DNA of 63,760 nucleotides, filler included, from Aduncisulcus paluster (taxonomy: Eukaryota), in assembly GCA_024181965.1 (NCBI GenBank). It is 24 parts of 24 records of this genome, joined end to end, with 100 filler letters (N's around TTAATTAATTAA, not from the genome) between each part and the next. Parts side by side here need not be neighbours in the genome. Positions count along the whole stretch, not along the records: positions 1 to 23,904 come from BQXS01000610.1; 23 more parts are not named here. One strand, given 5' to 3'. Under the pieces are notes generated by a model. The model ran no database searches. It was not told the origin of the DNA and saw only the letters and a program-made list of their open reading frames with translations. The position numbers and the translations under genes are program-made. How positions within the stretch are numbered: position 1 is the stretch's first letter; each line of letters starts with the position of its first letter. Below, piece by piece: positions 791 through 20,800 of the stretch.

Positions 791-1297
791 TTTATCTTTG
801 AACGAAAATGGCAAAACGACAGAAGTTATTCAACCAATTGGTGAAAACGTAATTTTATTGGTCTTTTTGTTGCACAAATATAATATAATTTCTTGCAGCG
901 TTTATAAAAATTCAGAAAATCATTTATCCAAAGAGATATATGCCATTTTTCAAACTCCGATTATAAATATCAGGTAATATTATCTTCTCATGAAAATATG
1001 AGATATAAATAACTGCCGCTATCCATAATTGTGGTTTAGAGTGGAATTCTTACGGCAATCCATGATGAAATCAAATCTCGATCATTTCTTTTAAAATCCA
1101 ATGAAATATTGTATTTTGTAAATTTTATTGTGAATGAAAAAAGATGTTTTTGACGAATCAAATCCAATAATAGGAGAAATATCCATGAGTGAAGAGATTC
1201 TTGAATTTCTTGTTGTTGCCATTTATTACAGGTTCAAGTTATTAGCCTAACCATCAAAAACCTTGATGACTTGTTATTTCTTCTGAAATGTTGCTTT

Positions 1298-3514
1298 TTA
1301 TTTTATTTCAACCAAGCCACCCTTTGCATCATCACACACACTCTTCCCAGTGTCTCTATTTCCAATCGAGCAAACACAGACCTCTCCATACACGTCCTCT
1401 CCAGAATCTTCAATAATGCAAGGAGAAGGGCACATTGCCACTGAGAAACCTTGGCAGAGGACTCCCGAACACACAGATGACGTGGAATTGAACACAATTA
1501 CATCAGGAATCTCAAGTTCTTCAAACAAAAGAGGGTAAGGCTCAAGTCTTTTGATAATTTTGTGACTTCCGTCTTTGTCCGAATCTTCATCATCATCCAG
1601 CTCATCTTTTCCCACTCGATCATCTTCAGTCTTGACCTTAACAGATCCAAGTTCCATTTTGATGATTCCGCTATGAGATTTCCTAGCCATACCCCTTTTG
1701 CTGCTTCCAAGGATAGTGTCTTCAGCAAACTCATTGGGGCCGAGCTGAGCATCAAGCTCCTGAGAAACTCGCTGGGGCATTGAAAGGATTGTGCTTCGAA
1801 CCCATTTCCCAGTCCCTGTATGGGTGTGAGCAAGGGCACTTTTGAGGTCAACGCCGAGGGAAAGAGGAGCAGGAAATAGGGGGAAAAGAGAACGTTGGTG
1901 GAGAACAAGATCTCGGAAACGACAAAGGAATTGAAGACGAGCACGATTGAGGTCTTTCTCGGAAAGTTCCAATTTGCGTTCATTTTTATCAATCACGGTT
2001 AACATTGCCCCTTCTGCCCGTTTGCTCCTCTCAAGTGCCCTTTTGTTGCGAGAAACTTGTTTAACGAGATCCATGATATTCTTTCGCACATAATCTGCAT
2101 CCATGGAGTGTGAATGGGCAATGATATCAACACCGGGAACGGCAATAACCATACCAGCGACTCGAAGAGAGCAAGGAGAGGGGAGGCAGAGGACATTCCG
2201 ATTGCCTTCAAGGGGGAATAGAGGAGGAGTAACAGAATGGGGGGTCAAAAGCTTAAGGCTGACGGTAACTGGTACAGGGAAGGGTGATGGAGTGACAGTA
2301 AGATCATTTTCCCATCCTGTCAGGATAATCCTTGAGCGAGGTAAAATACGACTTAAATTGGCGACATCACTTGCAACAAAGTTAATAAATACCTTAAGAG
2401 GAGTGACTTCTTCGTCAATACCTTCACTGGATGATAACAGTGATAATAACACAGCAGGAGGGAGCGTAGCAGGAATAAAGGGTCCGTTAACTATAATAAT
2501 GTCAGGTTTTTCTTTAATTAAAACGCGAGAAGCTCTCTTAAAACCTTCAAATTTCCAATGAGAAGCATCATAAATTAACATATCTTTTTCTGATTCTGAT
2601 TCCGATTCTTCTTCTTCCTCTTTCCTCATTTCTTTCTTCACTTTAATAAATTCAGTTGTTTTTTCTTCATCTTTAGCCACTTCACTTTTTTTGGGAATAG
2701 TTGAAATANNNNNNNNNNNNNNNNNNNNGGATGATAACAGTGATAATAACACAGCAGGAGGGAGCGTAGCAGGAATAAAGGGTCCGTTAACTATAATAAT
2801 GTCAGGTTTTTCTTTAATTAAAACGCGAGAAGCTCTCTTAAAACCTTCAAATTTCCAATGAGAAGCATCATAAATTAACATATCTTTTTCTGATTCTGAT
2901 TCCGATTCTTCTTCTTCCTCTTTCCTCATTTCTTTCTTCACTTTAATAAATTCAGTTGTTTTTTCTTCATCTTTAGCCACTTCACTTTTTTTGGGAATAG
3001 TTGAAATATAAGGCCCACATATCGAACATATTTTGAGCGGTTTATCCTGTAACTTCTTTTTATCCTCTGAAGGAGTTGATTTTTCATCCAATTCAACTGG
3101 TAATCCTGGAATAATATGCGTAACCATTACATTGTTACCCTTTTCCACTCTTCTCCCACGAAGAGCAATATATTGACCATCCACGAGCTGTGGTACGGTT
3201 CTTCCTGCAACTTGTATCGATTTTATATGAGGGGTTTGAGTTTTATGATCTAAATCAATAGTTTCAACATATACGGCACTATTCATTCTATCGAGTACAA
3301 TTCTCCCACCAGCAACAAATGGAGAATCATCATCTTCATCGTCTTGAATTCCACTTGTATCTAATATTACATCAGTCTTGGATACGGAATATTGTTTTAG
3401 CAATTCATAATTATCAGTAAACGTTTGAACAAGACGTTTAATTGGCCGGAATAATCCAACAGATACATCAATATCAAGCCTAAAACGTGGTTTCTTTGTT
3501 GTTGGTTTGCCCAT
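1298..3514 (-). CDS. POLA2: DNA polymerase alpha B (regulatory) subunit; about 638 aa once the artefactual duplication is removed
   Basis: OB-like segment (LVDGQYIALRG) and inactive phosphoesterase motifs ICGPY, PDIIIVNGPF, LPSPCSL..G..IAV, HQRSLFPLFP, PDVIV. Confidence 0.8.
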   Translation of the reverse strand: MGKPTTKKPRFRLDIDVSVGLFRPIKRLVQTFTDNYELLKQYSVSKTDVILDTSGIQDDEDDDSPFVAGGRIVLDRMNSAVYVETIDLDHKTQTPHIKSIQVAGRTVPQLVDGQYIALRGRRVEKGNNVMVTHIIPGLPVELDEKSTPSEDKKKLQDKPLKICSICGPYISTIPKKSEVAKDEEKTTEFIKVKKEMRKEEEEESESESEKDMLIYDASHWKFEGFKRASRVLIKEKPDIIIVNGPFIPATLPPAVLLSLLSSXXXXXXXISTIPKKSEVAKDEEKTTEFIKVKKEMRKEEEEESESESEKDMLIYDASHWKFEGFKRASRVLIKEKPDIIIVNGPFIPATLPPAVLLSLLSSSEGIDEEVTPLKVFINFVASDVANLSRILPRSRIILTGWENDLTVTPSPFPVPVTVSLKLLTPHSVTPPLFPLEGNRNVLCLPSPCSLRVAGMVIAVPGVDIIAHSHSMDADYVRKNIMDLVKQVSRNKRALERSKRAEGAMLTVIDKNERKLELSEKDLNRARLQFLCRFRDLVLHQRSLFPLFPAPLSLGVDLKSALAHTHTGTGKWVRSTILSMPQRVSQELDAQLGPNEFAEDTILGSSKRGMARKSHSGIIKMELGSVKVKTEDDRVGKDELDDDEDSDKDGSHKIIKRLEPYPLLFEELEIPDVIVFNSTSSVCSGVLCQGFSVAMCPSPCIIEDSGEDVYGEVCVCSIGNRDTGKSVCDDAKGGLVEIK
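2429..3008. other. Assembly artefact: 280-bp duplication (2429-2708 = 2729-3008) flanking a 20-N gap
   Basis: The same sequence lies on both sides of the gap at offset 300, creating a false 100-aa repeat in POLA2. Confidence 0.92.
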
Positions 3515-3820
3515 TTCGACAAGAAGGGCATTTTCTTGTTATTGTTTGAAGATGTCAATAAATGAAACAAATTCCGAGATAAATTGAGTTTATTTGACAT
3601 ATTCTGAAACATTCATGAAAAAATAAATCTTTGAAATCTTATTCTTCGGGGGATTGAATCGAAATATTGGTCGGACTAAGACAGAAGGAATGATGGCTAA
3701 ATAAATTTAATTATTTAATAAAATCGTGATAATTTGCTTTATTTGTCCATTAGAATTATATTTCCTGCATTTAACTTTGAGAAAATAAATCGACCATTTT
3801 TTCGGAAGAGAAGAGGGCTC

Positions 3821-5602
3821 ATGGTGAGGAGAGCGACTAGGTTAACCAAAATTCATGAGCAAGATGAAAAAAGAAAGGAGAGAATGGAGCAACAATTTGA
3901 GCTAGGTCAGAAAATGCACCAATCTCTTATTGAGCGTTTACAGAGTGGTGACCAACAATTACAAGAAGGAAAGAAGCGTAAAGAAATTGAAACTTCATAT
4001 ACTTCGATTGAAGAGTTCCCCGAAGGAACAAATTCAGATAGAGTTCGTGTTTGTTCTAAGGATAAAACTGTGCTCTTCCCACTCTTTGGAAGGCCAGTTC
4101 CTGTTCATTGCTCCAATATTACATCTGTTTCTTGCTCTGTTGCTGGGGCTATCTCGACCCTTCGTGTGAATTTGGATATCCCCAAACAAAACACGACTGA
4201 TCCTATCCGTCCTGAATTTGTTGGTTTATCCTTTATCAAGGAGCTTACTTTTCAAAGTGCAGACCCTAAAGCTTTCGTTCTTATTGAAAAAAAGATTCGT
4301 GAATGGAAGAGACAGAGAACTCAACGTGAATCTGATCGTAAGAAGAGAGCTGTTATCATTAGTCAAGGTTCTCTTGTTAAATTCCCGACTGCCACTGCTC
4401 CCAAATTGCGCCAAGTTAAGATTTACCTTCCAGGTAGAACAAAAGGAAATGAAAATGGTCAACTCATTGCCCATGCCAATGGGTTTAGATTTGTCTCAAC
4501 AAAAGGAAATACATTTGATTTATTATATAAGACAATTCGTTATGCTATTTTCCAACCGGCTTGGAAGAGTGAAACCAAGGTTATTCTTCACTTCCACTTA
4601 TACGGCCCTATTTCAGCTGTTATGAAAGGAACCACATCCCGTGGAAGTATTCCCACTGCTCAAGATGTTCAAATATATGCTCAAGTTGATTCTTTGTCCT
4701 CCGTGGCCTCCTCCTCCAGACGTTCTTACAAGGAAGAGATGCAAGAAGAGGTGAGGATGAGAAGGGAGATTAAGAAGCGTGTTCGTGACTTTGTTCAGTT
4801 TATTACTCGTGTTAGAGAGCATCTCAAGAAACGTGAGGAGGATGGAAAGGATGATCGATTCAAGTTCCAAGCCCCCAAGGAGAAGTTTGGTTTCAAAGGA
4901 AGCAGTGGTCGTTTATTCTATCCCGCAGCCCATTGTCTTGTTTCTCTCACCAAGCTGCCCCATGTTGTTGTCCCCTGGGATGATGTTGAGTTCGTTGTGT
5001 TCGAGAGGCTTGTCATGCGTCTATCGTCATTCGATCTCACCTTTGTCTTCAAGGATCTCAGTCAGGAGCCTTACCAGATCAGAGCTGTGCCATTCGAATA
5101 TCTTGAGCAGCTCCAAGACTTCTTCAATAACTTTGAGATCAAGTATTTCACCAGTACAACCTCCATTGGTTGGGCGATGATTGCCAAGAAGCTCCTTAAG
5201 GATGAGAAATCATATAGGGATTTCTTGCTTGAGGAAGGGGGTTGGCCTGCACTCTTTGGCGAACGTGTTCTTGATGAGGATGAGGTCGAGGAAGAGGAGC
5301 CCGAGGAAGAGGTCTTCAAGGAATACAGTGATGAAGGGAGCGAGTTCGTTGATGAGGAGGATAGTGATGAATTCGTCGATGAAGATGAACTCGAGAAGGA
5401 AATGGAGGAAAGAAAGGCTGAAAAGAAACGTAGAGAACAGGCGGATGACGAAAGCTCAGAGGAAGAAACTGAAGAGGAAGATTGGGAAGAACAACAGAGA
5501 AGAGCTAAGCTTGAAGATGCCAAGAAAATGAGAGCTCAAGAACGTGGACAACCTTTCAGTGATGGAGGGCAACTCAGAAGGAAAAAACACCGATTCCTTT
5601 GA
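3821..5602 (+). CDS. SPT16: FACT complex subunit SPT16 (dimerisation, middle and acidic domains only), 593 aa
   Basis: Motifs TVLFPLFGRPVPVH, TLRVNL, FIKELTFQS, GQLIAHANGFRF, IRYAIFQPA, VILHFHL, DVQIY, VEFVVFERL, FDLTFVFKD, FLLEEGGW and an acidic tail. The first in-frame ATG is at 3821. Confidence 0.9.
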   Translation: MVRRATRLTKIHEQDEKRKERMEQQFELGQKMHQSLIERLQSGDQQLQEGKKRKEIETSYTSIEEFPEGTNSDRVRVCSKDKTVLFPLFGRPVPVHCSNITSVSCSVAGAISTLRVNLDIPKQNTTDPIRPEFVGLSFIKELTFQSADPKAFVLIEKKIREWKRQRTQRESDRKKRAVIISQGSLVKFPTATAPKLRQVKIYLPGRTKGNENGQLIAHANGFRFVSTKGNTFDLLYKTIRYAIFQPAWKSETKVILHFHLYGPISAVMKGTTSRGSIPTAQDVQIYAQVDSLSSVASSSRRSYKEEMQEEVRMRREIKKRVRDFVQFITRVREHLKKREEDGKDDRFKFQAPKEKFGFKGSSGRLFYPAAHCLVSLTKLPHVVVPWDDVEFVVFERLVMRLSSFDLTFVFKDLSQEPYQIRAVPFEYLEQLQDFFNNFEIKYFTSTTSIGWAMIAKKLLKDEKSYRDFLLEEGGWPALFGERVLDEDEVEEEEPEEEVFKEYSDEGSEFVDEEDSDEFVDEDELEKEMEERKAEKKRREQADDESSEEETEEEDWEEQQRRAKLEDAKKMRAQERGQPFSDGGQLRRKKHRFL

Positions 5603-5805
5603 ATTTAAGAATCATGACTTGGTGAATGATTTTTTTTGACCGTTGTTGTGTTGCGTGTTCTGAAAAAAAAGATGAAAATAAAGGATATATTTAACTTGTT
5701 TGAGAGTTTTGATTTTATATATGATATTTATTTTCTAAATTGTAAACCACAATTGAAACCAAGTTTAAACTTGAAGTTTTGGTACACAATCCAAGATAAC
5801 AAACA

Positions 5806-6513
5806 ATGGGTATAAATTTATATTTGGTCAGACACGGAAATACATCATGGAATACATCTGACAAGTTCCGTGGAAAGGCAGATATCTTCCTCTCAGAACT
5901 CGGTCGTGAACAGGCGACATCTCAAGGGAAAAGACTTTCAAAAGTTAAATTTGCTCATGTATATTGTTCTCCTCTTAAAAGAGCTCAGGAAACAGCCACA
6001 AAAATAATTTCTCTTAACTGTACTCCTGGACTCAAGGAAAAACTCGAAATCAAACCAGAATTGGCTTCTGTTGATTATGGTATGTGGGAAGGCCTTACAC
6101 CAGCTGAAGTTGAAGAAAAATGGCCAGGATCTTTTGATAAATATGCTAAAGAACCTCATACTGTTGTGTTTCCAGGTGGAGAATCTCTCTCACAAAGATT
6201 AGACAAAGTTTTGACAGTTTTAGATGAAGCCCTTTTGAAATATGGGGATAAGAAAGATTCTGAGGGTAATGATTTAAATATTTTATTCGTTACTCACCAA
6301 GTTGTCACCAGAACCTTTTTGTGTCATTGCTTTAAACTTCCTGATGCTAGAGGATATTGGTCTATTGGTCAAGAAACTGCTTGTCTTAATATTATTACAA
6401 TTGCAGAAAGGGATGAGTGTGTGGTTGAAAAAATGAATATTGGTCCCTTCGATCCTATGAAAATCGAAGAAACCGAATCAGTCACCACAGACTGTGGGGA
6501 AGAAGAAAAATAG
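5806..6513 (+). CDS. Histidine phosphatase (phosphoglycerate mutase family; PspA/CobC-like)
   Basis: LYLVRHG catalytic motif, plus SPLKRAQET, DYGMWEG, FPGGES and second His in ILFVTH. Confidence 0.9.
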   Translation: MGINLYLVRHGNTSWNTSDKFRGKADIFLSELGREQATSQGKRLSKVKFAHVYCSPLKRAQETATKIISLNCTPGLKEKLEIKPELASVDYGMWEGLTPAEVEEKWPGSFDKYAKEPHTVVFPGGESLSQRLDKVLTVLDEALLKYGDKKDSEGNDLNILFVTHQVVTRTFLCHCFKLPDARGYWSIGQETACLNIITIAERDECVVEKMNIGPFDPMKIEETESVTTDCGEEEK

Positions 6514-7915
6514 GACAATCTAAACGATGAATTTCATTTAAATTCAGTCTTTTTTTATTTGTTTTGTTAAATTTTGTTATTGTTTTTTCGAAATGTCGCT
6601 TTGAACAATTTATGGTTCATTATGTGTCCTTTTTTATATTGTTTTGGGAATATTTCTAATTCGATCATCAGATCTTCTGATCTGTGTCGTTTATTTATCG
6701 GACGAAGCAAGTTCTTGCTCTGATATTGGCAACTTGCCATTGAAGATGCAAGATTTTCTTCCCAAAACGAATAAAATATCATTCTTACATTTATGAGTTT
6801 GTCTTATTAATAATTAACACATATCGTTAAGGAAGGGGAGTGTTCGTTTTCAATTTCAAACAAAAAGTGACTTTCCGGAGTCTCCGGACCGGAGATAATG
6901 AGGTAATCTAATTTATATCCCCTCTATATCACAGCATTAAAAACATTTATAACCAAATCAACCCTTATGTATGTATTTTGTTCCTAGATGGAGCCTCAGC
7001 TTCGTTCTTGAGACCGTCTCATGAGAGTGGCTCTCATATCGGATATGATGATGGGTATGCGTTGTTAATCGACTCATTGCCATTTTTTCGGAAAGAATTA
7101 TGTTTTTAAGTACGTTTTTACTGGATTTTGTTGTGTATGTGGATTCCACATTGTGGAAAGTATTTTAAGAAGGTTATTGCAGCTCCGGCGAGAAAAGTAA
7201 TTTTGTTGATTTATTATTTGTAAGATAACGTTATCATATATCCACGGATAAGGTTGACTCTCCTACACTTTGCTGATTCAGAAAAGATATTCTGTCAGGC
7301 ATGGATTCCGCTTTATATGAGACTCAAGGCATCATTAAGTTGTATTTGATCATTTGAAGAGTATGTTAACCACATTGGTGATCAATTAAAATATAAAATA
7401 ACTTGAAATAAAATAATACAATCAAAAAAAAATATATATATATATCTAAAAAGAAAACCCAATTCGGGAGATTGATATCAAGTAAAAATCAGTAAAACTT
7501 TGATTAGAATTACACCTATAATAGTTAAGATAGAACATATAGTGGTACAGTACAAAAAGATTGAGGCAAGTTGAGTGAAATGATAATCATGGAAAGTCCC
7601 GAAGTATGAATTGTTAATAAAAAAAAATTAATGTCAAAAAATTATTGAAGATTATTGAAGAATTTTGAAAGTCACTGGATGGGAAGAAGGGCATTATTAA
7701 AAGGTTAAAATAATAATCTTGGGTAGTACATTATCCAATGACAAATATTAAATTAAATTGGATCTCGTTAAGATTTGATTTGGGATAATAGTCAAAGAAA
7801 ATTGAATATTAGAAGAAATTACCTTTTTGATCCAATAAATTGAACAGAAATAAGTTTCTAAAAATGAATTAAATAGATCTAATAATAGATCATAATTAGT
7901 ATCAATGAGTAAATA

Positions 7916-10900
7916 TTATTCCACCCATCCTGTAATCCGATAGAAGAGGGCAGAGTCAGTGTTTGATGAACTATCTGAGAGCATAACTCTTACAATGACT
8001 TGGCCAGACTCATCGGGAGTCACACCGTCGCAAATGATCTTAGTAAGGTCATCAACAGAGTCGCTCAGAGTGTAGGTACAACTTCCACCGTTATCCGTGC
8101 TCACAGAGGACACCTGCATGAAACTATTGGCATACACATTAAGCACAACAACGCTGTAGCTGTCTGATTTAATGGGATTGAAGCTCACACTCATGGCTCC
8201 AGCACTCACTTCCTCAGACTTCACAAGGAGAGATCCAGATAGAGTCAGATGAAGATCAGCCGTAGCATTGAAAAAGATGGGAGATACTGCGAGCCAGGAG
8301 GGCACACTCACAGATAATTCAACATTCGTATCGTCAAAAGCAAAGTACTCGTTTGTACTGTCAGAATACAAGTTAGCAGGCCATTCATCATTGGATGAAT
8401 CGTACCAGAGGTACAAGAGTTGAAGATCAAGAGATTCCTCTGAACCAGAGAGAGAGAGGGAATACAACACATATGTCACCATAAATTGATGAAAAGAGGG
8501 TAATGTTTGAACCAAGAGGGAGATATCCCTCACCATCAAGAGTTTGAAGGGCAGAATTGGAACCGATCTGGGAATATCCTCCAGTTTTACCCATTTTGAG
8601 CACAGTGATATTGGTTTCAAACTCATTGGTATACGGTTCGACAGTGGTATCAATACAAACAGAATAGAACATAATGGCGAATAATGGACGATTACTCATA
8701 ACATCCATAGTAATTGACACTTCCCCGATTGCCTCGTAGTTTATGACTCCATCAACACTCGAGAATGAAGCTTCATATATCTGGGTTGGACGAATATCCA
8801 TTGAATTGGCATTCTCAAAGTGGAGGTGATAAATACCATAAAGGTTATAATAAGAATCGATACTTTCCTCAAGCTTAATTCCAGCAATGTGGACTCCACC
8901 AATAGAATCAGCGACAACACCGTAGGGTTTGAAACTGACAGAATAGCTCTTTGGAAGATCACCAATCATCATGGCACTGAAGGAAGGCCACACAAGGATA
9001 GAATGACTACTGGCATCGGTAACATAGACCTGTCCAGTTTGTGAGATAGCAACGTTCAAGTTAGCGCTCTGAGTATCCTCTTCGAGCGTTAGCTCAATGT
9101 CGTACACAGAATTGCCAATATATTCGCCATTCAAAATTAGCATACACTCAAGTGTGTACACTGATGTTCCAGATAGAAGGAAGTTGACACCACATGCAAC
9201 AGAAGCATCATATACAATCGTGTCCTCGTTCGACAAGTTTGTATAAGTTAATGGATCAGTGAAGGATATGGTTGAAGAAGCTACATATTGGATATTGGAA
9301 CTGGCAAACTTAGCTTCTGGCAGCGAATCCATGTCAGCATCCCAGTCAGTACCATCAATGGTGAAAGTGTAAACAGCTCCTTTAGAGTTTAAATATATTC
9401 CAACACCGTTATCACCAATAGAGAAGGAAGGGGAATTGGAAATGTCAAGATCAGCATCGAAATCATAGGATTCCTTGGAGGTGAAATCATCAGCAAATGT
9501 GAAGAAAGGGGCCAGAGTCCCAAGGGTCTCCACACTAGGGTGTAAATTACTAACTTCTCCACGGACAGATTGCATGTAGATGGTCTCGGTGCTGCCTTTT
9601 ACAATGGAGAGTGAAGATGAATAGAAGATAAAGGGACTGGCATTTTCGTCGAGGGTTTCAGAGAGGTATAAATTAACCGAAGAAAGGTTCCCGATGGTTC
9701 TTTCAGAGAAATTGTCGAAGGTCACAGTAACCATGGAATCAGCAGCCTCAGATGAAATATCTCCAGATGCAGCAAAGAAAAGTTTGATTTCTCCAGATGT
9801 TTCATCCAAAGTTCCCTCAATAACATCACAATCAAGAGTTGTGCCACTGGATGTTACTTCAGCAATGGAACAATGCATAATCAATCTATTGATGTGTCCA
9901 GCACTGTTCTGATATGTTTGGCCACTGATTCCCGTCAACCCATTCATATCGTCGTACAAGAAGATAGTGTTGCCACGGACAGTGTATCCGTCATCCAAGA
10001 GAGCGAGAGAATCGGCAACAGAATGCTGAACATCGTCAAGAACAGTCGATATCTTGGGGGAGTAAGGTTTCCATGAAAGGGCAGCAACAGACTCATCATC
10101 TATTTCATCATCAGCGATAGCAGTGAGATAGAGATTGGATGAAAGGGCTTCGGGGAAGGAAGGGTGGATAATCTGAGGATTAGCACTATCTTCACGAGCA
10201 TCGAGGTAGAATATATTATCCATGTCAGTTGATACCTTAACGTCACTCTTCTTGACATATTGACTGTGGTGATGCAACTCATCGGCATCGTTGCCCTGTG
10301 TCAGGGTTGTGTACTGGTCACCAGAAAGATGGACATCCTCGGCTGAGTTAGTCATGAAATCAGAGTGCGAGAGGTCCAATATTGTCAACGTGTCGTCATT
10401 TTTAGTGTCAACTTGAAGAGTTCTAACGTAATGTTCAGGATCCGAGACAGAAGAATCTCTAGGAATGATCTTGGCACCATATTCCAGCAAACTATCCTCA
10501 TCAACAATGGTTCCATCGGTTTGGGTGGGGGTTCTTATAAACCATGTTCCTGTACTGTCCTCGTTCCCAGACTCAATGGGAATAGAGTCAAAGGGGAGAA
10601 GGCCAAGATCAGTCAGTTCAACGAGCTTCTCCTCAATCTTGTCGTGATAAAGGGCATGAGAATGACCAGGATCGGAAGTGACGGTCGTTAGTTTGGTGAG
10701 AGTGTCCTCACTAATGTGAACATCACCACCTTTAATACCGTCCATATCAGAATGGACAACCTTATGGTCTCCAATCATTAAAATACCATCAACATATTGT
10801 GTGTCATTCGTGCTTTCCATTGTTTGGACACCATTTAAAATTAATGAACTCTTTGAGATCTGGCGATTCATTCCAGAGGAAAGATAAGTGGAAGAAAGAG

Positions 10901-11423
10901 ATATCGAATCGGTGGTTGAGGTTTCGGAAAATCCTAATAATCCAACGAGGGCAGGCCATGCCTTAAACTTAATAATCACATAACTGAAAGCAACAATAAT
11001 AACAATAAATAAAACTCCAAATAAAATAGCTAAAATAATTAAATTCAATTTAAGAGCCCTAACGGTCTGTTTTTTCTCAATAGTTTGCCTCTTTTTCGCA
11101 GCTTTGCTTTCTTTTTTAACCTTAGGGGCAGAGGTAGCATCGGGTTCAACTCGATGACCGATAGCAGAATCAAACATGGTCGAAGAAATGGGTGCCGGTG
11201 TCATAATGATACCAGAATCTTCCATGGTGGTAGAAATTACGGAGGCCGGTGTTATCATTGGGGCTATAATACCAGTAGAAGGCTTTGATCCAAGAAAAGG
11301 ATCTAATGCTCCAGCGACATCGGCCATTTCGGGCATTTTGGGGTCTGATGCCTTTGGTACTGTTTCTTCAACATCAACATGATCTGGAGAAATAGCAGCG
11401 ACATCTCCAAGATAGTCAAACAT
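7916..11423 (-). CDS. Large type II single-pass membrane protein with His-rich repeats and NHL-like motifs; frameshift at (AG)6 8447-8458
   Basis: The 998-aa ORF has one TM segment (LIILAILFGVLFIVIIVAFSYVII). The overlapping ORF 7916-8653 continues with the same Ser/Asp-rich composition after the microsatellite. Adding 2 nt joins them into about 1169 aa. Confidence 0.75.
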
Positions 11424-12360
11424 ATCTTCTCCGAATGGATCTTAAATTTTGACAATATTGTAAGTGTAAATAAAATAATAATAAAGATTAGCATCAAAAT
11501 ATACATACCTTCCATTGTTTTAAAGTTTAAATGAGTGTGATACCGGGGGAAATGTTTGATATGGAAAGATTTTACCACTTGATGAAATTTTAACGACAAA
11601 AATAATAATAACGTTCCGAGAAATGTTTATTTTTTAGCTTGGTGTATTTTACAACCATGCAAATTCAGAAATAATTTTTTTGCGTTCTATTTCGCTCTAA
11701 TCATCTTTATTGGAGCTATACTGAACTATTTTAAATTATACTAATCGATACTAAAAAATAATGACTCTTAAATGCAATTAAAATCCGGAAAAACTCAGAA
11801 TTCCACTTTCTGGGTTTTCCATACATCTTACCGATAAATAGATCATTAACATGGTCATTGAGCAGAGACTATTGGGTTATATCGCCATATATGGGTGAGC
11901 TCGAGCTAGGGACAATCCATATGGCCTTCAAGGCCGCCTTGAATCTGTGAATATCACAGAATATCACGAAAACTCGTTGTCCTCATAAATAATTTCACAG
12001 CTGTGAATACAAAAATAATATCAAGGAGTGACTTTGAAACACAATACTCAGGAATATCTACAAACCCTACTGTAGTACTATCATAGTACAAGGAGGAAAC
12101 CATCAACAGAAACCAAACAATAATATGATCCACAAGAAATTTGATGTAATGTCAAGCATAAATACCCCAATAACCACGGTCAAACCTTGGCTGATTCATG
12201 TTCCACAACACTGTTGATGATAGGCATGATCATGTTGATCAGTGCTCGTCATATGTTTTTAGATTGAATTGATTTATATTCTTCTCTCTTTGGATGATTG
12301 AAACTACTTCTTTCTCAATGCAAAGAGAAAAGGTTGATCAACAGTTTCGGTTGAAGGCCT

Positions 12361-13102
12361 CTACAGATTTGACAAAAAGTCAAATAAACCTGGTTCGGCA
12401 CTTTTGCCTTTTTGTTTTGAAGGAGGTTTCTTATCTCTTGGCTTGCCTTGCTGACGCTTTTTGATTTTGGCAAGAGATTTCATTTTTTGTTTCTTATTTT
12501 TTGCTAAAATATCCTGATCAGAACTCATTCCTTTCGTATTGGCTTTCTTAATCCGAGTATCTTTCTGATATGATCCTTTTCTTTTTCCTTTTTCAGTCAA
12601 ACTTTTTGAATGTTTGGACCCCTTCTTATCCTGACTATTTCTAACTTTTTCACTATCTGATGTAGACATTTTTTTGAGAGGTTTAATTTTAACTTGAGAA
12701 ATAAAAAGTGGGAACGATACGTGATTTGTACATTTTAAGCACGAATAAATGCAAACCTTCCGAACTTTATGACTATCCACCTTAATATATTTTCGAGCTA
12801 TTTTACGATGGCGAACCCTACAATATTTCCCATCGATCCATGATATACCACAGAATGGACAAAATTTACGTTTTATACTTGGGGTTTGTTCATCTTTTTC
12901 ATAGGTTGAGAGTTCCGAGCTCCTTTTAACATAATGAAAGAGATAAGAGAAAATATGAGGATAAAATTCAATATAATATAAAAAACAACAGAATATAAGA
13001 AGTGAATATTCAAACAACAACATACTTGACATATCTTTTGTAATCAAGAGGTAAGGCATCAACAGACAACAATTCTGTAAACAGTGTTCGGTAATCTTCC
13101 AT
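12361..13102 (-). CDS. RPP21: RNase P subunit Rpr2/RPP21-like zinc-ribbon protein; exons 13102-13026 and 12922-12361
   Basis: IKRKFCPFC...CRVR...YSCLKC two-CxxC pattern with a basic tail. A GTATGT..AAG intron (13025-12923) joins MEDYRTLF..RYVK in frame to SSELSTYEK. Confidence 0.7.
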
Positions 13103-13394
13103 TAATCTATATATTATCCTAAAAAGCCAACAAGAATGCCAGCAATGTCACGCAAAACGATATTTTTGTATTCCTTGCTTTATACCTGAATTAAATAGAA
13201 TTTGATTATCAAATTTTTGTTATTCTATGATATTGACTACCACTTTTAGTTAATATATTCCGTTAATAAGCAAATTTGACAGAAATATTGAAACGATATT
13301 TTTTCCTTGCACTAGACCAAACTTTTCATCTATTGCTTCACAAATCTGATTATTATTTGTAAAATTTATTTTTAATTTCTCTATATTGAAATAG

Positions 13395-16300
13395 ATGGAG
13401 ACTACACAATCTATCTTGGAAGAATTCATTGCCAAACATATATCTGAGTTAAAATTTCTGTTTAATTTTTATTCTGGTACATCAACTTACCTTTCTGGTG
13501 GGGATTTTATGAAAATATTGGATGATTCTGGTCTTTTCTCATCGAAAAAAATTACCAGAAATCAAGCTCGTTCTATCTTTGAATCCATCGTTTTTAAATC
13601 ATTACAGCAAGTAAGAAAACCAAATGTTCCTGGAAGATCCATTACTGTGTCTGAAATTGGAAAGAATCTGTTTTCCACTTCTAAAGTATATCATGAGCGG
13701 GTTGCTAGAAGTAGAGATGTAGTAATAGCTAAATCATTTGATAAAACATATTCTCAACTTACTAAATCTAAAATTTTAGAAGAACGAGAAAGGAGTAGAG
13801 CGTTTGATCGGGTCAACCCTCCAGACGCTTCAATGTTTGCCCCTTCACCTCAATCTTTTAAACAAAGTCTTATTTCAGAAATGCCATCCCATGCTCCAAC
13901 CTATTTACTTGGTGGAAAGTCTCATTCTCCAGCTCGTCAGATTACTTCAGCCACATATGCTACTCGTGCCCTTAAATCGGCACATTCAAGATCCAGTCAC
14001 TCTAGTGATGGAGGTAGAGTTAAATCTTACCTTAATTTGCGGACTATTCCACATCCTGCCACGCTAGTTCAAGGTGATCTTGATAATTCTAAATCTCATA
14101 CTGGCAACAAATCAAAACAGAGTTTAGGTACCGCGATATCTTCTTCGGATGGTCCTTCGTCATCTCTTGCTCTTCAAGCCAGGAGTTGGGGTCTTGGAGG
14201 TCCACTCTATATTGAGGGTAACGGAAGTATCGGCGGTGAGAATGTTGAAAAAGTGCTTGCTTCTGTGAGAAGTGTGGCTGGGAGCACTCCAGTTGCAAGA
14301 ACAGGGATGTCTCACGAGTTGAAGAAGAAGAAGAAAAGGGAGGAGACTCTTGAGTGGAAAAGGAAGAGAAAGGACCAAATGAAAACAATCAAGGAGAGAA
14401 GAAAGCATATAATAAGCGGAGAAATGGTTAAACCCTGTGATATTGCAACGCGTGAAGTTTATTCTGCTACAGGTCGTCCTCGACCAGCCATCTCTCGAAC
14501 ATCCTCAGTAAGCAGTCATTCGGCCAGTGAAGAGGAACATTCCATGTCNNNNNNNNNNNNNNNNNNNNCTTGGAGGTCCACTCTATATTGAGGGTAACGG
14601 AAGTATCGGCGGTGAGAATGTTGAAAAAGTGCTTGCTTCTGTGAGAAGTGTGGCTGGGAGCACTCCAGTTGCAAGAACAGGGATGTCTCACGAGTTGAAG
14701 AAGAAGAAGAAAAGGGAGGAGACTCTTGAGTGGAAAAGGAAGAGAAAGGACCAAATGAAAACAATCAAGGAGAGAAGAAAGCATATAATAAGCGGAGAAA
14801 TGGTTAAACCCTGTGATATTGCAACTCGTGAAGTTTATTCTGCTACAGGTCGTCCTCGACCAGCCATCTCTCGAACATCCTCAGTAAGCAGTCATTCGGC
14901 CAGTGAAGAGGAACATTCCATGTCTGTCCATGAGCATTCTTCAAGTGAAGAAGATCATTCGAGCAGTGGCATCTCTGGTGGACTCTCTGATAGTCAGAGT
15001 GCCGGCAAAGCTATCGAAGGTGAACAACTGACCAAATATTCCTCTTTCCCCATTCATTCTGCACTGAAATCGTCATCTTATCAAGGTCATTCAACCGATA
15101 ATTTACAGACAGTTACTGAAGAACCTGGAATGGGTGAATATAATCCCCAGAACACTAGCGACAGTGCCAGGGAAGGGTATGCTGTAGCTGATGAGGAAAC
15201 GACGATCCCTAGTAGCATTGGAGGTGGATGGGGCAGAGCTGCCACTAGGGCATCAATTGCTGATATCAATCCAAGTTCAGCCTCCAAGCAGAACTCATAT
15301 AACCGTATCCACTCAAGGACACCGTCTGCACATAATCCAATGACATGGACGTATGTTCCGAGTACCAGCTCTTCTGTTGCTTCCATTAAGAGCGGACAAG
15401 ACTCTCCTTCTCAGAAACACACTGCACCGGGATCCCAGACTCCTCTTCTCTCGCTCCACACTCATTCTGTTCTCTTGTCTCTCTGTGGTAATGCTCCTGC
15501 GATACCCCAAACACATGAACCAGCGTCAAGGCAGCGTGGAGAGTTCTCTATCACTCAGAGTCAGAAACTAACAACCCCCGGGACTGGTCCCACTGTCACT
15601 GATGATGGCACAGTACAGTATAGCAATGCGATGGGTCGGTCCGTCAGTCATCAATCATCCGTTGCTGGTGGAGTATCAGGGTCGATGGGAGTTGCTGAGT
15701 TTGAAGCCTCTGGCACCATTGCTGAAGATTTGAAACATCAGGAACTCCTCGAGAAGACAGGGAGGAATGTTGATGAGACTGTGATTGAGCATGACTTGAA
15801 GGAGGCACATGCCTTCACCACTCTTCAAACGATGCTGACGGCGATATCCGGGTCAATCGGGAAAGGAGTGAGAAAGACAACAGGTGCCACGGCTAGTAGT
15901 GGTCTATTTGGAGTTAGAATGGGTCTTCAAACCTCTCCAAGCAGTGGGAAACCATTCCCATCCACTTCTGAGTCTCCCCAAGCAAAGGATACAATGTCTG
16001 GTGCTTCCTCTGGCACACTCACTGGCAGTTCCACTCAGCACACAGTAGATCCTGTGAGTGGCAAGAGATTGCTCCACCAGGGGGGCTATATTTCTTCCCA
16101 AGCGAGTGCGTCTCTATCTCCTTCGACAGGAAGATACCCTTCTGGCTCTGTTCTCTCGACCATGTCAGGGAGGACTGAGAAATCTGGCACAAGCGACATT
16201 CGGTCAGGTCTTACAACTCACACATCCATGAATACAAATGATGTAAAATACACTACACACACAGATACAACCTCATGGTTGACAGATGCCAAGAAAATCT

Positions 16301-17571
16301 CGGACAAAAACCTTAATTTACTCCAACAGACTGCAATCGAAGCTGCTACACAACCTCCTCAGCTTCCTCCATATCCGGTTTTGGACGGTAAGTTCCGTCT
16401 TCGCCGTCGAGGTGATGGAGGTATTGAATCTGGTGGTAAGAGTGGTCTTGAGCACACTCACAATGACATATCATACAGTCAGGCTCCAGATCTTGTTGCC
16501 CACACGCATGACATGGGAGATGGTGAGCTGGAATGGTATCTTGAACGTGTCGAAGGAGGAGTCGTGATGCGTATGTCATTTAGTGAGTTTTTGGCCGCTA
16601 TCATCGAGGTTGGGGCCAAATGTAGGGAACAAAGGGAAAGGGCTGCCAAGCATGAGGAAGAAGAAGAAATGAAGAGTGGGAAATCCTCGATCTCGATAGC
16701 CAGTGAAGATCTCCTGTCTCACAGCACTGTTGTGAGTAAGAAAACACAGAAAGGAGTCACTGTTCGTCAAGAAATGAAACTATCGAGAAGATCCATGTCC
16801 TCTTCAGCTCTTACCTCTGGTGATCTTGGCAAAGAAAACTCTATTGGCGAGGAGATGGAGCTTGTTATTGAGTTTAACCATGTAAAGAAAGCTATTCCAT
16901 CCTCAATGAGTCTCTCTCAGTCAGTGATGGATCTGGTTGGACATTATTTACTGCCCACGTTGAGACATAAGGTGCATCGCCTGCAGCTAACAAAGCCCCC
17001 CGGTAAAATGATCGGCAATGAACTCACTGAGGTCTCTATGGCTCACTATAAACTCCTTAAGGCCCATGCTAGTCTTCTGCGTCAAGTCTTTGTGATGCTT
17101 GGGAACCTTGATTTCAGAAGCAACAAAGGTATCGGAGTCACGATCATGGGATGTCGCTCCTTTTTGTCGATATTCAAAAAGACCAGAGTCATTAGTAGCG
17201 AAATGCCAATTGCGACTGTGAGGAAAGTGTTTTATTTATGCTCCCGGAAGAACTCTCTCGAACGTGCCCCACACCTCGACTCCCATCTCATCTTCCCTGA
17301 GTTCTTAGTGGCCATTGTATCAGTGTGCACGATCCATGGGGCTCTTGACGGGAAAGAGGCAGGCCGTGCTAGGTCTAGAGAAAGAAGGAAGAGGGAGTTA
17401 GATTCCAAAACAAGACAGAGGGGGTCAACTTCAATGGAAATGGCAAAAGATGACGAATCTTCGAGTGTGAAGACATTGCGTAAGTTCCTTGCTTTACTTA
17501 AAGTCGAATATAACCACGAAGCTAGGCTTATCCCTGCTCGGAAACTTCCCCTGTGGCCACAGCTGTTTTGA
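13395..17571 (+). CDS. Hypothetical protein with degenerate EF-hand-like helical repeats and a long Ser/Thr/Gly-rich insert; about 1266 aa after removing the duplication
   Basis: Similar motifs near both ends (LKFLFNFY..DFMKIL..IF..MSFSEFLAAI; LLRQVF..SFLSIF..VF..LIFPEFLVAI). The two track ORFs merge when the gap duplication is collapsed. Confidence 0.65.
14193..14924. other. Assembly artefact: 356-bp duplication (14193-14548 ~ 14569-14924) around a 20-N gap
   Basis: Offset 376; the only difference I saw is G14450/T14826. Confidence 0.9.
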
Positions 17572-17873
17572 GCGTTAATATAAGACATTGGATCCATTAA
17601 CTATACCATTCTCTTAATCATGAATTTAATTATGATTCTCTTATAGTATTTTTTTTATATTACTTGACATTTTTGAACCATTATCCTTTGAAATTTTTTG
17701 GCCGGAATCGGATGTATATACCCCATGATATTTCGAAAATAAAGCATAAAATTTGTGTATAAATGAAGATTTTCCAATCATTTTAAATCAATTTTGATTA
17801 ATTCACAGCTGAACAGAAAGAATGCATTTTTGATCAAAAAAATAGCGTTTAACAGCACCCAATACAAATACAA

Positions 17874-20800
17874 ATGGAAAAAGATGAAGTGATTTCTTCA
17901 GAACAACATTTTGAAGTCCAACCTCTGTATGTATTTCTATGATTTTGTTCAAAAGTTGTTTTTTAATGTTTCCGATCAATATTTACATGAATTTGTACTA
18001 TTTTTATTTTCAATATTATGATATAATGTAGATTTTCACTTGGAATTTCCCCTGTTATGGGACTACCTCAATTTATTGACGATCATACAATTATTTATAT
18101 ATCAGGGCGTGTTATTGTACAAAAAGATCTTGAAAGGGGGCTTATACGACAAACAGCTTTCACAACCAATCCAGGAACTGTTAAAATTGCGAGCATTTCG
18201 ATATGTCACAGATATTTAGTTTTTGCAGATTATGTTGATAAACACACACCTCCTGTTCTATATATTTTTAATTTGGCTCCACCATCAGCCCCTAGACTTC
18301 TTGGAACGATCAAAATACCCGATGCTAGATCCATTGGTACCGATGTCTTATCGCTTGAGATAGATGATGATGGTCAGCATGTAATGTGTCAAATGGGAGC
18401 CTCAGAGTACACTATGATGTCTTGGCGAGTAGAAAAAGAGGATAGTGTCCTCAAGCGGAGTGCAGTTGTCGGATCTAAAGTTGTACAATCTTCAGTCTGT
18501 CCTTTCGAGAAAGTTGGGTGGCTATCCACAGGAGATCGATTGATTAAATTTTGGCGTGTTAATGATTCTTCAATGCGTGAGTTTGTGCCTGTTAATTGCA
18601 GGAAACTTAGTGGGAATTTTACCAAACACACCTGGCTCAGTGCTGATATTGCCGTTGTCGCCGGGGAGGATGGTAATATTATTCTCATTGAGGATAATTT
18701 TATTAGTTCAGTAATTCCTGCAAAGGCCATTTGGGGTAGATTTTTCGTTGACCGTACTGGAATATCTCTCATCTCTGATGGTGGTGAGAAAACTCCCAAG
18801 AAAGATACAGCTTCAACCGTATCGGCAACAGGCGAAGCAGAGGCTTCTTCATCTTCTACTCCCCCACCGGGATTTATCACTGTTCTTCAGAGATGGAGTG
18901 AGGGTATCATTGTTGGTACAAGTGATGGCCTTGTCACAGTGTTTAAAATTGGACAAGATGAAACCTTTAAGGAGCCTGTCGTGGGTGGGGTTTCGTCTGG
19001 GGCGTCAGAGATTGGACCCAATCCATCTTCAAAGCCAGGGAGGACAAATGAGGCTCTTGAGGCCAGTGCATATGGGCATGGTGCATCGAAAGGAAGGTCT
19101 TCAATGGTGGCAAGTCAGGCCTCTGGAGAGCCAGAGGCTATCAAACATAAGAAAGGTTTTTCAACATCATCAACTCTGGTTATGCCCTTCCTCAATTACC
19201 GTCCAATTCCTCTCACCGATTGTGTGGCTCTAGTTCGTTATAAGATACCCACAGCTCTGGCCACATGTGGAACCCATACATTGCTGTCAACTCTGTGCGA
19301 CGATGCCAATACTTATGTGATTGATTCTCCGTCCATTGACAACATTAGTGTGTCTCCTGGGAGCAAAGTTGTATGTATTTCAACTGGAGATAGACAAATT
19401 TATATTCTTCGCCTCGATTTTATTGCTGAGGAAATGAGAGATCGTGCTGAGAAGCTTGGTGATGCCGCGAAGAGGAAAGAAGAGGAGAGGCTGAAGACAA
19501 AGAAAGATATTAAGCGTCGAGAGAAGGTTAAAACCGAGAGATATCCGGATCCTCTTGGAAGAGACTTCCATTCGACATCAAAGATGTCTTCCTCTCAAGC
19601 CTATAATCCTCCAGTCATAATCCAACCAATATATGACGATATTGACAACATTATTGCTGCCTGTACAAGAGTGGTTGGTGGTGTTGTTATCCGTAAGAAG
19701 GAATCTGCCATTACATCGTCCTCTTCTTTCCACGAAAGATCGAATAATATATCATTATATAGAAGAGAAACCGAGGAACTCCTGGATGATCCTGATGTCA
19801 AAAGCCTTGTACAGCATGGATATATGGAGGATCTTGAGGTCACCCGGAGGATATTTGCTACCCTGAATGATTGTCTTGATGCAATGAGCAAACATCGTGG
19901 TATCTCGATTGGGGATCAATGCATTAATCTCCTTACCGCAAGAGTATCCATGTTCCATCCCATATGCTGTAGTGTGACTCTAGACAGTGGACTTGAAGAA
20001 TGGAGAGAAATTGATGGGTTTGAAGTGAAACTGGCACCTAAAACGGCGTTGGAAGAGGTGGAATCGATGCTTTCAAGACAAAAGGAATCAGATCTCATGC
20101 ACCAACGTCCAATTGAAGGGGATCTTGAACATGAGGTTGCCACTCTTGTTAGGGGAGGAAGAGGCTCTACCCTTGGATTGTTCCATACTATTCCTGCCAT
20201 ACTGCCCTTTGACACTGTTATATCAGTGTCGGTGTGTAATACAACCCCTCTGGCTGCATTTATCACCGGGGAAGGTGTTGTTACCGTGTTTCGTTACACT
20301 GACAGTGCTATATTGTGCCAAAAACTCATATCCAACCAACCAAAGTCGTTATCTTTCCATCCCATGGGCTATTTGGCTATCGGTAGTCTGTCCCATTGCT
20401 CCGTGTATAGTTTTGTCAATACCGAAGCCGAGGGAGGTGGTTTGCTTGAAATTGGACGGGTGAGTTGTTCTTGTTCAACTCGTTGTCTTTTCAACAATGG
20501 GGGTAATATCCTTGCCATTGCCACAGCAACCAATGTATCCATTGTTTCTTTCCCTTCAATGCTGATCCAATGTGTCATTTCGCCTCAGTCTGACCCTATT
20601 ACTGATATTGCCTTCTCGAACGACGGTCAATTCATTGCCACAGTGAGTGTTGGGGGTTCCTTATGTGTGAATCGGCTTCCCACTGGGGAAAAAGTTGCCG
20701 AATGCTCCATTAAGAGTACTGCCTTGTTTGGGTGTACTTGGATTCCTCTTCCGCCACATATGGGTGGAATCAGTGGGATTAACTTTGAGAAGGCCATTAT

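What the first reader, a model, noticed from the sequence alone, without database searches (positions are those of the whole stretch)
10257..10754. Phage tail-fibre-like His repeats in a eukaryotic type II membrane protein
Seen: after the single TM helix, two related units occur: HSDMDGIKGGDVHISEDTLTKLTTVTSDPGHSH (10656-10754) and HSDFMTNSAEDVHLSGDQYTTLTQGNDADELHHHSQY (10257-10367). Further C-terminal are NHL/beta-propeller-like strands (VAISQTGQVYVTDASSHSILVW, PYGVVADSIGGVHIA). Known: HxH motifs bind metal on the trimer axis of T4 fibres gp12 and gp37. Inference from recalled patterns: the H-x-D-x-x-G-x-x-GG..H-[IL]..LT..HxH unit resembles repeats in uncharacterised phage fibre proteins. The architecture (anchor, metal-stapled trimeric stalk, propeller head) would suit a phage-derived surface fibre or adhesin, for example for prey capture or symbiont binding. 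The gene sits on the 24-kb scaffold with intron-bearing eukaryotic genes, so simple contamination is unlikely.
Basis: partly seen in the sequence, partly recalled or inferred. Interest (0 to 1): 0.75.

Follow-up and report, generated by a model that had tools for sequence, protein, structure and literature searches.

The report
Orphan protist membrane protein, His-rich stalk
A gene found only in the free-living flagellate Aduncisulcus paluster encodes a membrane-anchored protein with two histidine-rich repeats that a structure model places at the core of a three-chain bundle, but nothing links it to phage tail fibres by descent.

Summary
Both units sit at the stated coordinates in a 1145-aa, three-exon gene (ADUPG1_000999, Aduncisulcus paluster) on a 23.9-kb scaffold with clearly eukaryotic neighbours. 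The protein has one TM helix with N-in topology. Half of its His (12 of 24) lie in residues 228-402.

The two units are the protein's best internal similarity, but only modestly above chance: 3 of 150 global and 1 of 150 block shuffles reach the score. There are two copies only.

The phage-derived reading failed every sequence test: Pfam, PHROGs, NCBIfam, tblastn against 50,697 phage records, three IMG/VR scans, PDB sequences, and direct comparison with T4 gp37 and gp12. By exhaustive HMMER over 1.84 billion representatives the protein is a singleton orphan. The only hit is one NHL-type blade (799-855).

The trimeric-stalk idea did gain model support. ESMFold2 on three copies of 222-410 scored ipSAE 0.54 against 0.00 for the best of 3 controls (pLDDT 52). 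The interface falls on the two units, with same-residue contacts between copies. No coordinates were returned, so the His and metal geometry is unchecked.

Verdict: a lineage-specific surface protein, probably self-associating through a new His/Asp module. It resembles a phage fibre in mechanism at most, and is not a member of those families.

The parts
11509..11515 (-). Exon 1 (ATGGAAG: start codon, Glu, and the first base of Asp3)
   Evidence: Read from the sequence. It reproduces the N-terminus MEDPFGED of the annotated protein P0002.
11441..11508 (-). Intron 1, 68 nt, GTATGT...TTAAG, start-codon proximal
   Evidence: No transcript evidence was obtained here.
8534..11440 (-). Exon 2, residues 3-972 of P0002; holds everything in the finding
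   Evidence: tblastn of P0002 on the window and the sequence.
8440..8533 (-). Intron 2, 94 nt, GTGAGG...TTCAG, holds a (CT)n tract
   Evidence: The contig of run X1 carries a 2-bp insertion here at 8446.
7916..8439 (-). Exon 3, residues 973-1145 plus stop; no family match
11052..11515 (-). Cytoplasmic N-terminal region (residues 1-132, intron 1 included). Acidic and Pro/Ser/Thr-rich, ending in a basic stretch with 10 K/R in 25 residues
10968..11051 (-). Single transmembrane helix (residues 133-160)
   Evidence: It is the only Kyte-Doolittle segment above 1.6 (peak 3.49). The positive-inside rule gives N-in.
10656..10754 (-). His/Asp unit 1 (residues 232-264; HMM envelope 228-272). Invariant H232, D234, D242, V243, H244, H262, H264, Y267
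   Evidence: It lies in the modelled trimer interface.
10596..10646 (-). Short helix after unit 1 (residues 268-284) with interface residues at 3-4 residue spacing (270-271, 274-275, 277-278, 281)
   Evidence: A helix at 271-280 appears in the low-confidence AF2 model. Interface list.
10368..10595 (-). Spacer between the units (residues 285-360); no residue in the modelled interface
10257..10367 (-). His/Asp unit 2 (residues 361-397). Invariant H361, D363, D371, V372, H373, H392, H394, Y397
   Evidence: It lies in the modelled trimer interface, apart from 361-368.
8883..9053 (-). NHL-type blade plus the first strand of the next blade (residues 799-855)
   Evidence: Pfam NHL 16.2 bits, below the cutoff of 20. 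phmmer E 7.2e-6 to the NHL protein P0003. Blade HMM 12.4 bits against a shuffle maximum of 3.6.

Best explanation
This is a lineage-specific (orphan) single-pass type II membrane protein of Aduncisulcus paluster. After the anchor and a Ser/Thr-rich linker come two copies of a new ~45-residue His/Asp module: H-S-D-x7-8-D-V-H-[IL]-S-x-D-x2-T-x-L-T-x6-7-H-x-H-x2-Y.

My reading is that the modules act as in-register clamps. They hold several chains together in parallel (three as modelled). The conserved His, and perhaps Asp, face the shared core, where they could bind a divalent metal. The ~85-residue spacer between the modules loops out.

The stalk would then display a very acidic, beta-rich ~750-residue distal part carrying at least one NHL-type blade as the ligand-binding end. 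For a bacterivorous flagellate, that suggests a surface adhesin or receptor.

Shown: the gene, its topology, the repeat, the His clustering, orphan status, and one NHL blade.
Supported by a model only: self-association through the units.
Inferred: the number of chains, metal binding, cell-surface location, and an adhesion role.

The protein resembles a phage fibre in mechanism at most. Descent from phage is not detectable.
For: - Gene and topology.
- Repeat: it is the best internal similarity of the protein, reached by 3 of 150 and 1 of 150 shuffles. There are 17 invariant columns, including 4 His.
- His clustering: 12 of 24 His lie in 228-402, P 7e-5.
- Self-association: ESMFold2 on three copies of 222-410 plus 2 Zn, no alignment, gave ipSAE 0.53, 0.54 and 0.54 against 0.00 for the best of 3 controls. 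The runs agree in at least 65% of contacts, and the partner pLDDT is at least 51.
- Calibration of that mark: reached by 21 of 30 microbial homo-pairs and 0 of 23 single chains. For eukaryotes it was reached by 17 of 29 homo-pairs, but only 1 of the 7 with no older solved relative, and by 0 of 30 single chains. The tool notes these counts hold only roughly, because a ligand rode along.
- Interface location: 61 of 81 interface residues fall in the 74 unit residues out of 189 modelled, and none fall in 285-368. His244, 264, 373, 393 and 394 are in the interface of all three copies.
- Register: same-residue contacts at 244, 245, 253, 382, 397 and 398 indicate a parallel, in-register arrangement.
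- Not a remembered complex, as far as sequence shows: no solved structure has a similar sequence (0 hits at E <= 10; only chance hits with best E 0.31).
- Distal part: net charge -106, 13.7% Ser, 7 Cys, 7 sequons, and one NHL blade.
- Eukaryotic setting: neighbours SPT16, DNA polymerase alpha/epsilon subunit B, Rpr2 and EML-like propellers.
Against: - The repeat's significance is modest once selection is removed (P about 0.01-0.02), and about half of its score comes from the aligned His.
- The complex model has low confidence in the fold itself (pLDDT 52). It used no alignment, and 'predicted or disordered chains' were not in its calibration.
- Only the three-chain state was modelled. No coordinates were returned, so neither three-fold symmetry nor His-metal geometry could be inspected.
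- AF2 on the monomeric stalk and on residues 650-971 gave nothing usable (pLDDT 29.1 and 33.0).
- No homologue exists, so conservation of the His cannot be tested.
- No transcript evidence was obtained.
- Surface location and adhesion are inference only.
Confidence: 0.45

Rival explanations
1. This is a monomeric orphan membrane glycoprotein. The two units are the fading relic of an internal duplication, with no assembly or metal role, and the ESMFold2 pass is a false positive on a partly disordered, His-rich chain.
For: The repeat is only modestly significant, and the tails are not duplicated. Fold confidence is low everywhere (pLDDT 52; 29 and 33). Disordered or predicted chains were not covered by the tool's calibration, and up to about 10-12 in 100 single chains may reach the mark by the tool's own bound.
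Against: The score is 0.54 against 0.00 in all 3 controls. None of 23 microbial and none of 30 eukaryotic single chains reached the mark. The interface coincides with the two units and skips the spacer entirely, which a non-specific bundling of chains would not be expected to do.
Confidence: 0.33
2. This is a phage- or virus-derived fibre gene, acquired by horizontal transfer and diverged beyond recognition.
For: The predicted parallel self-association has His in the interface, which is how HxH motifs work in T4 gp37 according to passages read in PMC11705849. The local context G-H-S-H of unit 1 resembles the G-x-H-[ST]-H contexts of gp37. The two best Atlas feature hits for the stalk are caudoviral clusters, but at 0.76 and 0.75, below the level shuffled proteins often reach.
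Against: Every similarity test was negative: PHROGs and Pfam, tblastn on phages, IMG/VR scans, gp37 and gp12 comparisons, and 1.84 billion representatives. There are two HxH 130 residues apart, against 7 within about 115 residues in gp37. The gene has two spliceosomal-type introns, host-like GC3 and housekeeping neighbours.
Confidence: 0.07
3. Each unit is a within-chain metal site, with four His and several Asp per unit. It would serve metal sensing, metal scavenging or a pH switch rather than chain-to-chain assembly.
For: Each unit has four invariant His and four invariant Asp, and His are strongly clustered.
Against: No match to any metal-binding family in Pfam or NCBIfam. The only structural test places these residues between chains. 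This rival is not exclusive of the best explanation.
Confidence: 0.1
4. This is not a real gene but an annotation artefact.
For: No homologue in any collection and no transcript evidence obtained here.
Against: An uninterrupted 998-codon frame in a window whose 2-kb bins run 29-47% G+C is far beyond chance. The exon-intron model has canonical GT..AG ends. Per the genome announcement, which I read in full, the models were built by Braker2 with RNA-seq hints (PMC9933649).
Confidence: 0.02

Closest known systems
Receptor-binding tip of phage T4 long tail fibre gp37 (HxH iron sites) and similar fibres
   Same: His-x-His motifs sit in a protein predicted to assemble in parallel, with the His between chains. 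gp37 binds seven iron ions through paired His (passages of PMC11705849).
   Different: No sequence or profile similarity (also 5, 25-27, 51, 52, 73, 74). There are two HxH 130 residues apart rather than seven within 883-998 at gaps of 9-37. The protein is membrane-anchored, intron-bearing and eukaryotic. Metal binding is unverified.
T4 short tail fibre gp12 (single HxH site in its distal domain)
   Same: A single HxH per module: gp12 has one, at residue 445.
   Different: BLASTP best E 5 and hhalign probability 0.07%. Pfam gave no family at all for the stalk.
NHL-repeat beta-propeller proteins (Pfam PF01436), such as P0003, a six-blade NHL surface protein with a C-terminal anchor
   Same: Residues 799-855 align to NHL blades at 30-35% identity (E 7.2e-6 over the whole library).
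   Different: Only one blade is detectable rather than five or six. The Pfam score of 16.2 is below the cutoff of 20. There is no match to the teneurin NHL domain model, which P0003 does match.
Animal type II trimeric surface receptors (scavenger receptor A, langerin, collectin-like; recalled, not tested)
   Same: The architecture is similar: N-terminal cytoplasmic tail, a single anchor, an oligomerising stalk and distal binding domains.
   Different: Those use coiled coils or collagen triple helices. Here only a ~15-residue helix follows unit 1, and the clamps would be His/Asp modules. No sequence relation was found in any search.

Membership tests
Phage tail-fibre families (gp37-type tip, phage fibre repeats, tail collar domain) | Sequence or profile similarity to a phage fibre family or protein | tested here: not met
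   PHROGs: 0 families for the stalk and for each unit at E <= 10; whole protein only a spanin model at E 0.41 over the TM. Pfam: none. tblastn on phages: best E 7, antisense to the annotated gene. gp37 and gp12: E >= 2.8, probability <= 0.22%.
Phage tail-fibre families (gp37-type tip) | Several closely spaced HxH motifs along the fibre axis | tested here: not met
   gp37 has 7 HxH within 883-998 at gaps of 9-37. This protein has HxH at 262 and 392, 130 apart, plus an unrelated one at 874.
Phage tail-fibre families | Parallel homotrimer with the His between the chains | tested here: inconclusive
   ESMFold2 on three copies scored 0.54 against 0.00 for the best of 3 controls, pLDDT 52. The interface is on the units, and His244/264/373/393/394 are in all three copies' interfaces. 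Only the three-chain state was modelled, and no coordinates were returned.
Phage tail-fibre families | Metal ion coordinated by six His on the three-fold axis | not testable with these tools
   Zn rode along but is not scored, and no coordinates are given.
Phage tail-fibre families | Relatives of the unit encoded in viral genomes | tested here: not met
   IMG/VR scans confirmed 0 of 38 and 0 of 22. The degenerate core pattern gave 10 stretches, 0 with the flanking H-x-D or H-x-H.
NHL repeat beta-propeller (PF01436) | Score at or above Pfam's gathering cutoff | tested here: not met
   16.2 bits (P0001) and 16.1 bits (P0002) against a cutoff of 20.
NHL repeat beta-propeller (PF01436) | Five or six consecutive blades | tested here: not met
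   A blade HMM built from the six blades of P0003 finds 1 blade (803-824, 12.4 bits; 200 shuffles reach at most 3.6). The AF2 model of 650-971 is unusable (pLDDT 33), so a degenerate propeller is not excluded.
NHL repeat beta-propeller (PF01436) | At least one blade with significant similarity to bona fide NHL blades | tested here: met
   phmmer E 7.2e-6 over 1.84 billion representatives, query residues 790-852; alignments.
Type II single-pass membrane protein | No N-terminal signal peptide, one internal hydrophobic helix, and positive charge on the N-terminal side | tested here: met
   One hydrophobic segment only (127-168 by window, core 134-159). 10 K/R in the 25 residues before it against 1 in the 25 after. 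This is a prediction from sequence, not an experiment.

The most novel reading that the evidence does not exclude
A eukaryote builds a membrane-anchored trimeric surface fibre whose chains are stapled by hexa-histidine metal sites, one per His/Asp module. This is the same physical solution as phage tail-fibre tips. It would have arisen either independently or from a transfer so old that only the mechanism survives. If the His are on the axis, acidification (for example in a food vacuole) or metal loss would unclamp the stalk, which gives a switchable prey-binding fibre in a bacterivorous protist.
Probability: 0.15. Interest if true: 0.7.

Novelty: new variant of a known kind. Interest (0 to 1): 0.4.

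Why it matters
Surface proteins of free-living fornicates, the relatives of Giardia, are almost unstudied, and how these flagellates bind prey bacteria is unknown. A new oligomerising module held together by histidines would be a second, independent instance of the metal-staple principle known from phage fibres. It would also give a handle on a candidate prey-binding or adhesion protein.

If the self-association does not hold up, this is one more orphan membrane protein of a poorly sampled lineage. The finding is then useful mainly as a caution: HxH motifs alone do not indicate phage ancestry.

Tried and rejected
- Whole-genome search for paralogues: no genome is held for this window. Within the window, tblastn found only the gene itself, and the unit HMM found no other copy.
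- Transcript evidence: no RNA holder is listed. The one run found (X1, kind guessed) gave contigs colinear with the genome and no joints at the introns, so it behaves as DNA. This says nothing about expression.
- AF2 without an alignment gave pLDDT 29.1 for 195-420 and 33.0 for 650-971. Because these models are unusable, I ran no fold search.
- ESM Atlas: the best scores were 0.76 for the stalk (two caudoviral clusters) and 0.80 for 640-1145 (DUF5018, NHL, XusB clusters). All are below the level that shuffled proteins often reach, so they are leads only.
- PDB by sequence: 0 hits for the whole protein. The unit profile hit only a lipoate-protein ligase subunit and RuvB-like 2, at E 0.31-1.2, which is chance.
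- NCBIfam: only TM-region noise at E around 0.1.
- Word-index searches: self only, for residues 190-998 of P0001, for 940-1145 of P0002, and for the unit profile against longer proteins.
- Metagenome contigs: 0 of 79 pattern matches confirmed. Prokaryotic genomes: 0 of 107 confirmed.
- Earlier scan notes: none for this place or sequence.
- Rejected: the weak Synaptobrevin and Orf78 Pfam matches (E 0.036-0.2) cover only the basic stretch plus the TM.
- Rejected: a teneurin relation suggested by type II topology plus NHL, because P0002 does not match the teneurin NHL model.
- The exhaustive HMMER job used P0001, which lacks the last exon. That part (940-1145) was covered only by the word-index search and by Pfam and NCBIfam.
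Full report
WHAT IS THERE. The finding lies in a 998-codon open frame on the minus strand (8427..11423). The only database match is the record itself: hypothetical protein ADUPG1_000999 of Aduncisulcus paluster, 1145 aa, on a 23,904-base contig. A. paluster is a free-living Carpediemonas-like fornicate.

The annotated model has three exons:
- 11515-11509 (ATGGAAG);
- 11440-8534;
- 8439-7916.

Its two introns have canonical ends: 68 nt (GTATGT...AG) and 94 nt (GTGAGG...AG). P0002 numbering, used below, is ORF numbering plus 8.

The window is a chain of scaffolds separated by N runs, and the gene is on the first one, 1..23904. Its neighbours are plainly eukaryotic:
- the FACT subunit SPT16 (E 4e-23);
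- a histidine phosphatase (E 1e-46);
- RNase P Rpr2/Rpp21 (E 5.5e-8);
- DNA polymerase alpha/epsilon subunit B (E 2e-5, below the cutoff);
- EML-like propellers.

The gene's GC3 (0.38 and 0.46 for its two large exons) lies within or just above the neighbours' range of 0.25-0.43.

CHECK OF THE OBSERVATION. All four quoted peptides are at the stated coordinates.

The protein has a single hydrophobic segment (core 134-159). There are 10 K/R in the 25 residues before it and 1 in the 25 after, and the N-terminus is not hydrophobic. The predicted topology is therefore N-in, type II.

The part beyond the anchor (985 aa) is very acidic (net charge -106). It has 13.7% Ser, 9.3% Asp and 8.4% Thr, with only 7 Cys and 7 N-x-S/T sequons.

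The two units align with 17 invariant columns out of 49. These include four His (232/361, 244/373, 262/392, 264/394), four Asp, the D-V-H triplet and a Tyr.

On the pre-selected pair, the Smith-Waterman score is 60 against 27.7 +/- 5.6 in shuffles, reached by 1 of 2000 shuffles. That test is biased because the pair was chosen by eye, so I repeated it over all segment pairs of the protein. This pair is still the best internal similarity (62), but 3 of 150 globally shuffled and 1 of 150 block-shuffled proteins reach that score. The repeat is real but modest.

There are two copies only, and the sequence following each unit is not alike. No further copy is encoded elsewhere in the window.

His are concentrated in the stalk: 12 of 24 lie in residues 228-402 (P 7e-5). 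HxH occurs three times against 0.48 expected (P 0.011).

THE DISTAL PART. The 'NHL-like strands' are supported for one blade.
- Pfam NHL scores 16.2 bits, below the cutoff of 20.
- The exhaustive phmmer search found a six-blade NHL protein (P0003) at E 7.2e-6 over query residues 790-852.
- A blade HMM built from P0003 finds exactly one blade (803-824, 12.4 bits; best of 200 shuffles 3.6).

AF2 on 650-971 without an alignment was unusable (pLDDT 33.0). A complete propeller is therefore neither shown nor excluded.

IS IT PHAGE-LIKE BY DESCENT? Every test I could run says no.
- PHROGs: nothing for the stalk or for either unit at E <= 10. For the whole protein there was only a spanin model over the TM, at E 0.41.
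- Pfam: nothing for the stalk.
- NCBIfam: noise only.
- tblastn of 195-420 against 50,697 phage records: 6 records, best E 7. The top match is antisense to the annotated phage gene.
- IMG/VR scans with the unit alignment and with the stalk: 0 of 38 and 0 of 22 pattern matches confirmed.
- The back-translated invariant core, D-V-H-[IL]-S-x-D-x2-T-x-L-T, matched 10 viral stretches. None of the 10 carried the flanking H-x-D or H-x-H, and 5 of the 10 had stop codons within 20 codons.
- Prokaryotic genomes: 0 of 107 confirmed. Metagenome contigs: 0 of 79 confirmed.
- T4 gp37: BLASTP best E 2.8; the profile comparison gave probability 0.22%, a 10-column match on G-G-H-T-H-S.
- T4 gp12: BLASTP best E 5; hhalign probability 0.07%.

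The layout also differs. T4 gp37 has eight HxH motifs, seven of them within 883-998 at gaps of 9-37 residues, and gp12 has one. This protein has two in the stalk, 130 residues apart.

That gp37 binds seven iron ions through paired His, and that phage fibres carry several close HxH motifs, I took from passages of PMC11705849.

Overall the protein is a singleton orphan. phmmer over 1.84 billion representatives returned only itself and P0003, and three word-index searches returned only itself. The exhaustive job used the ORF without the last exon.

DOES IT WORK LIKE A FIBRE? I modelled three copies of residues 222-410 with two zinc ions riding along (ESMFold2, no alignment).
- The scores were 0.53, 0.54 and 0.54, against 0.00 for the best of 3 controls.
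- The runs agree in at least 65% of contacts, and the partner pLDDT is at least 51.

By the tool's calibration, the mark was reached by 21 of 30 microbial proteins solved as homo-pairs and by 0 of 23 solved as single chains. For eukaryotes it was reached by 17 of 29 homo-pairs, but by only 1 of the 7 with no older solved relative, and by 0 of 30 single chains. The tool adds that these counts hold only roughly here because a ligand rode along, and that predicted or disordered chains were not tested.

The location of the interface is informative.
- 61 of the 81 interface residues lie in the 74 unit residues, out of 189 modelled.
- None lie in the 285-368 spacer.
- His244, 264, 373, 393 and 394 are in the interface of all three copies.

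Several of the most confident contacts join the same residue in two copies (244, 245, 253, 382, 397, 398). That is what a parallel, in-register bundle gives.

After unit 1, the interface residues 270-271, 274-275, 277-278 and 281 follow a 3-4 spacing on a predicted helix.

No solved structure has a similar sequence, so the pass is not an obvious recollection of a known complex.

The limits of this result are as follows:
- the fold confidence is low (pLDDT 52);
- only the three-chain state was tried;
- no coordinates are returned, so symmetry and His-metal distances could not be checked;
- this is a model's confidence, not a measurement.

BEST READING. I read this as a lineage-specific type II membrane protein whose stalk self-associates through two copies of a new His/Asp module, probably with bound metal. 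The stalk would present an acidic, beta-rich distal part with at least one NHL-type blade. In a bacterivorous flagellate, an adhesin or receptor role is the natural guess. I put this at about 0.45.

The main rival, at about 0.33, is that the units are a decaying duplication in a monomeric protein and the model pass is false. Phage ancestry diverged beyond recognition gets about 0.07. A within-chain metal site gets about 0.10. A non-gene gets about 0.02.

NOVELTY. The module matches no family in Pfam, PHROGs, NCBIfam or the PDB. The kind of thing it would be, an anchored oligomeric surface stalk with His between the chains, is known from phage fibres and, in architecture, from animal type II receptors (the latter recalled, not tested). 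I therefore file it as a new variant of a known kind. Interest is moderate, limited by the lack of homologues, of a usable structure and of expression data.

One earlier scan note (e1-4691933, another genome) describes a bacterial membrane-anchored protein with phage-fibre-tip HxH modules. It shows that cellular proteins of that design have been reported in this scan. I did not test it, and it did not change my reading.

Noticed in passing
window 8440-8533 (at 8446): The contig of run X1 carries a 2-bp AG insertion relative to the window, inside the (CT)n tract of the annotated intron 2. A length difference that is not a multiple of three fits this stretch being non-coding.
   Followed up: partly
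window 11441-11515: Intron 1 (68 nt) begins only seven bases after the A of the start codon (ATGGAAG|GTATGT), which makes it a start-codon-proximal intron.
   Followed up: no
window 2-814 (-): An open frame running off the scaffold end has weak teneurin-type and EGF_2 EGF matches (E 3e-4 to 7e-4, all below Pfam cutoffs). It may be another surface protein gene.
   Followed up: no
window 13395-17571 (+): Two long open frames (398 and 1014 aa) are separated by the N gap at 14549-14568. Neither has a Pfam match at E <= 0.001. They are probably one more large orphan gene next door.
   Followed up: no
window 23905-63760: The rest of the window is a chain of about 30 short scaffolds (roughly 1-2 kb each) joined by paired 44-N runs. 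Linkage claims are therefore valid only within 1..23904.
   Followed up: no
window 18057-23456 (+): A 1799-aa intronless frame has weak EML-type and WD40 beta-propeller matches, all far below Pfam cutoffs.
   Followed up: no
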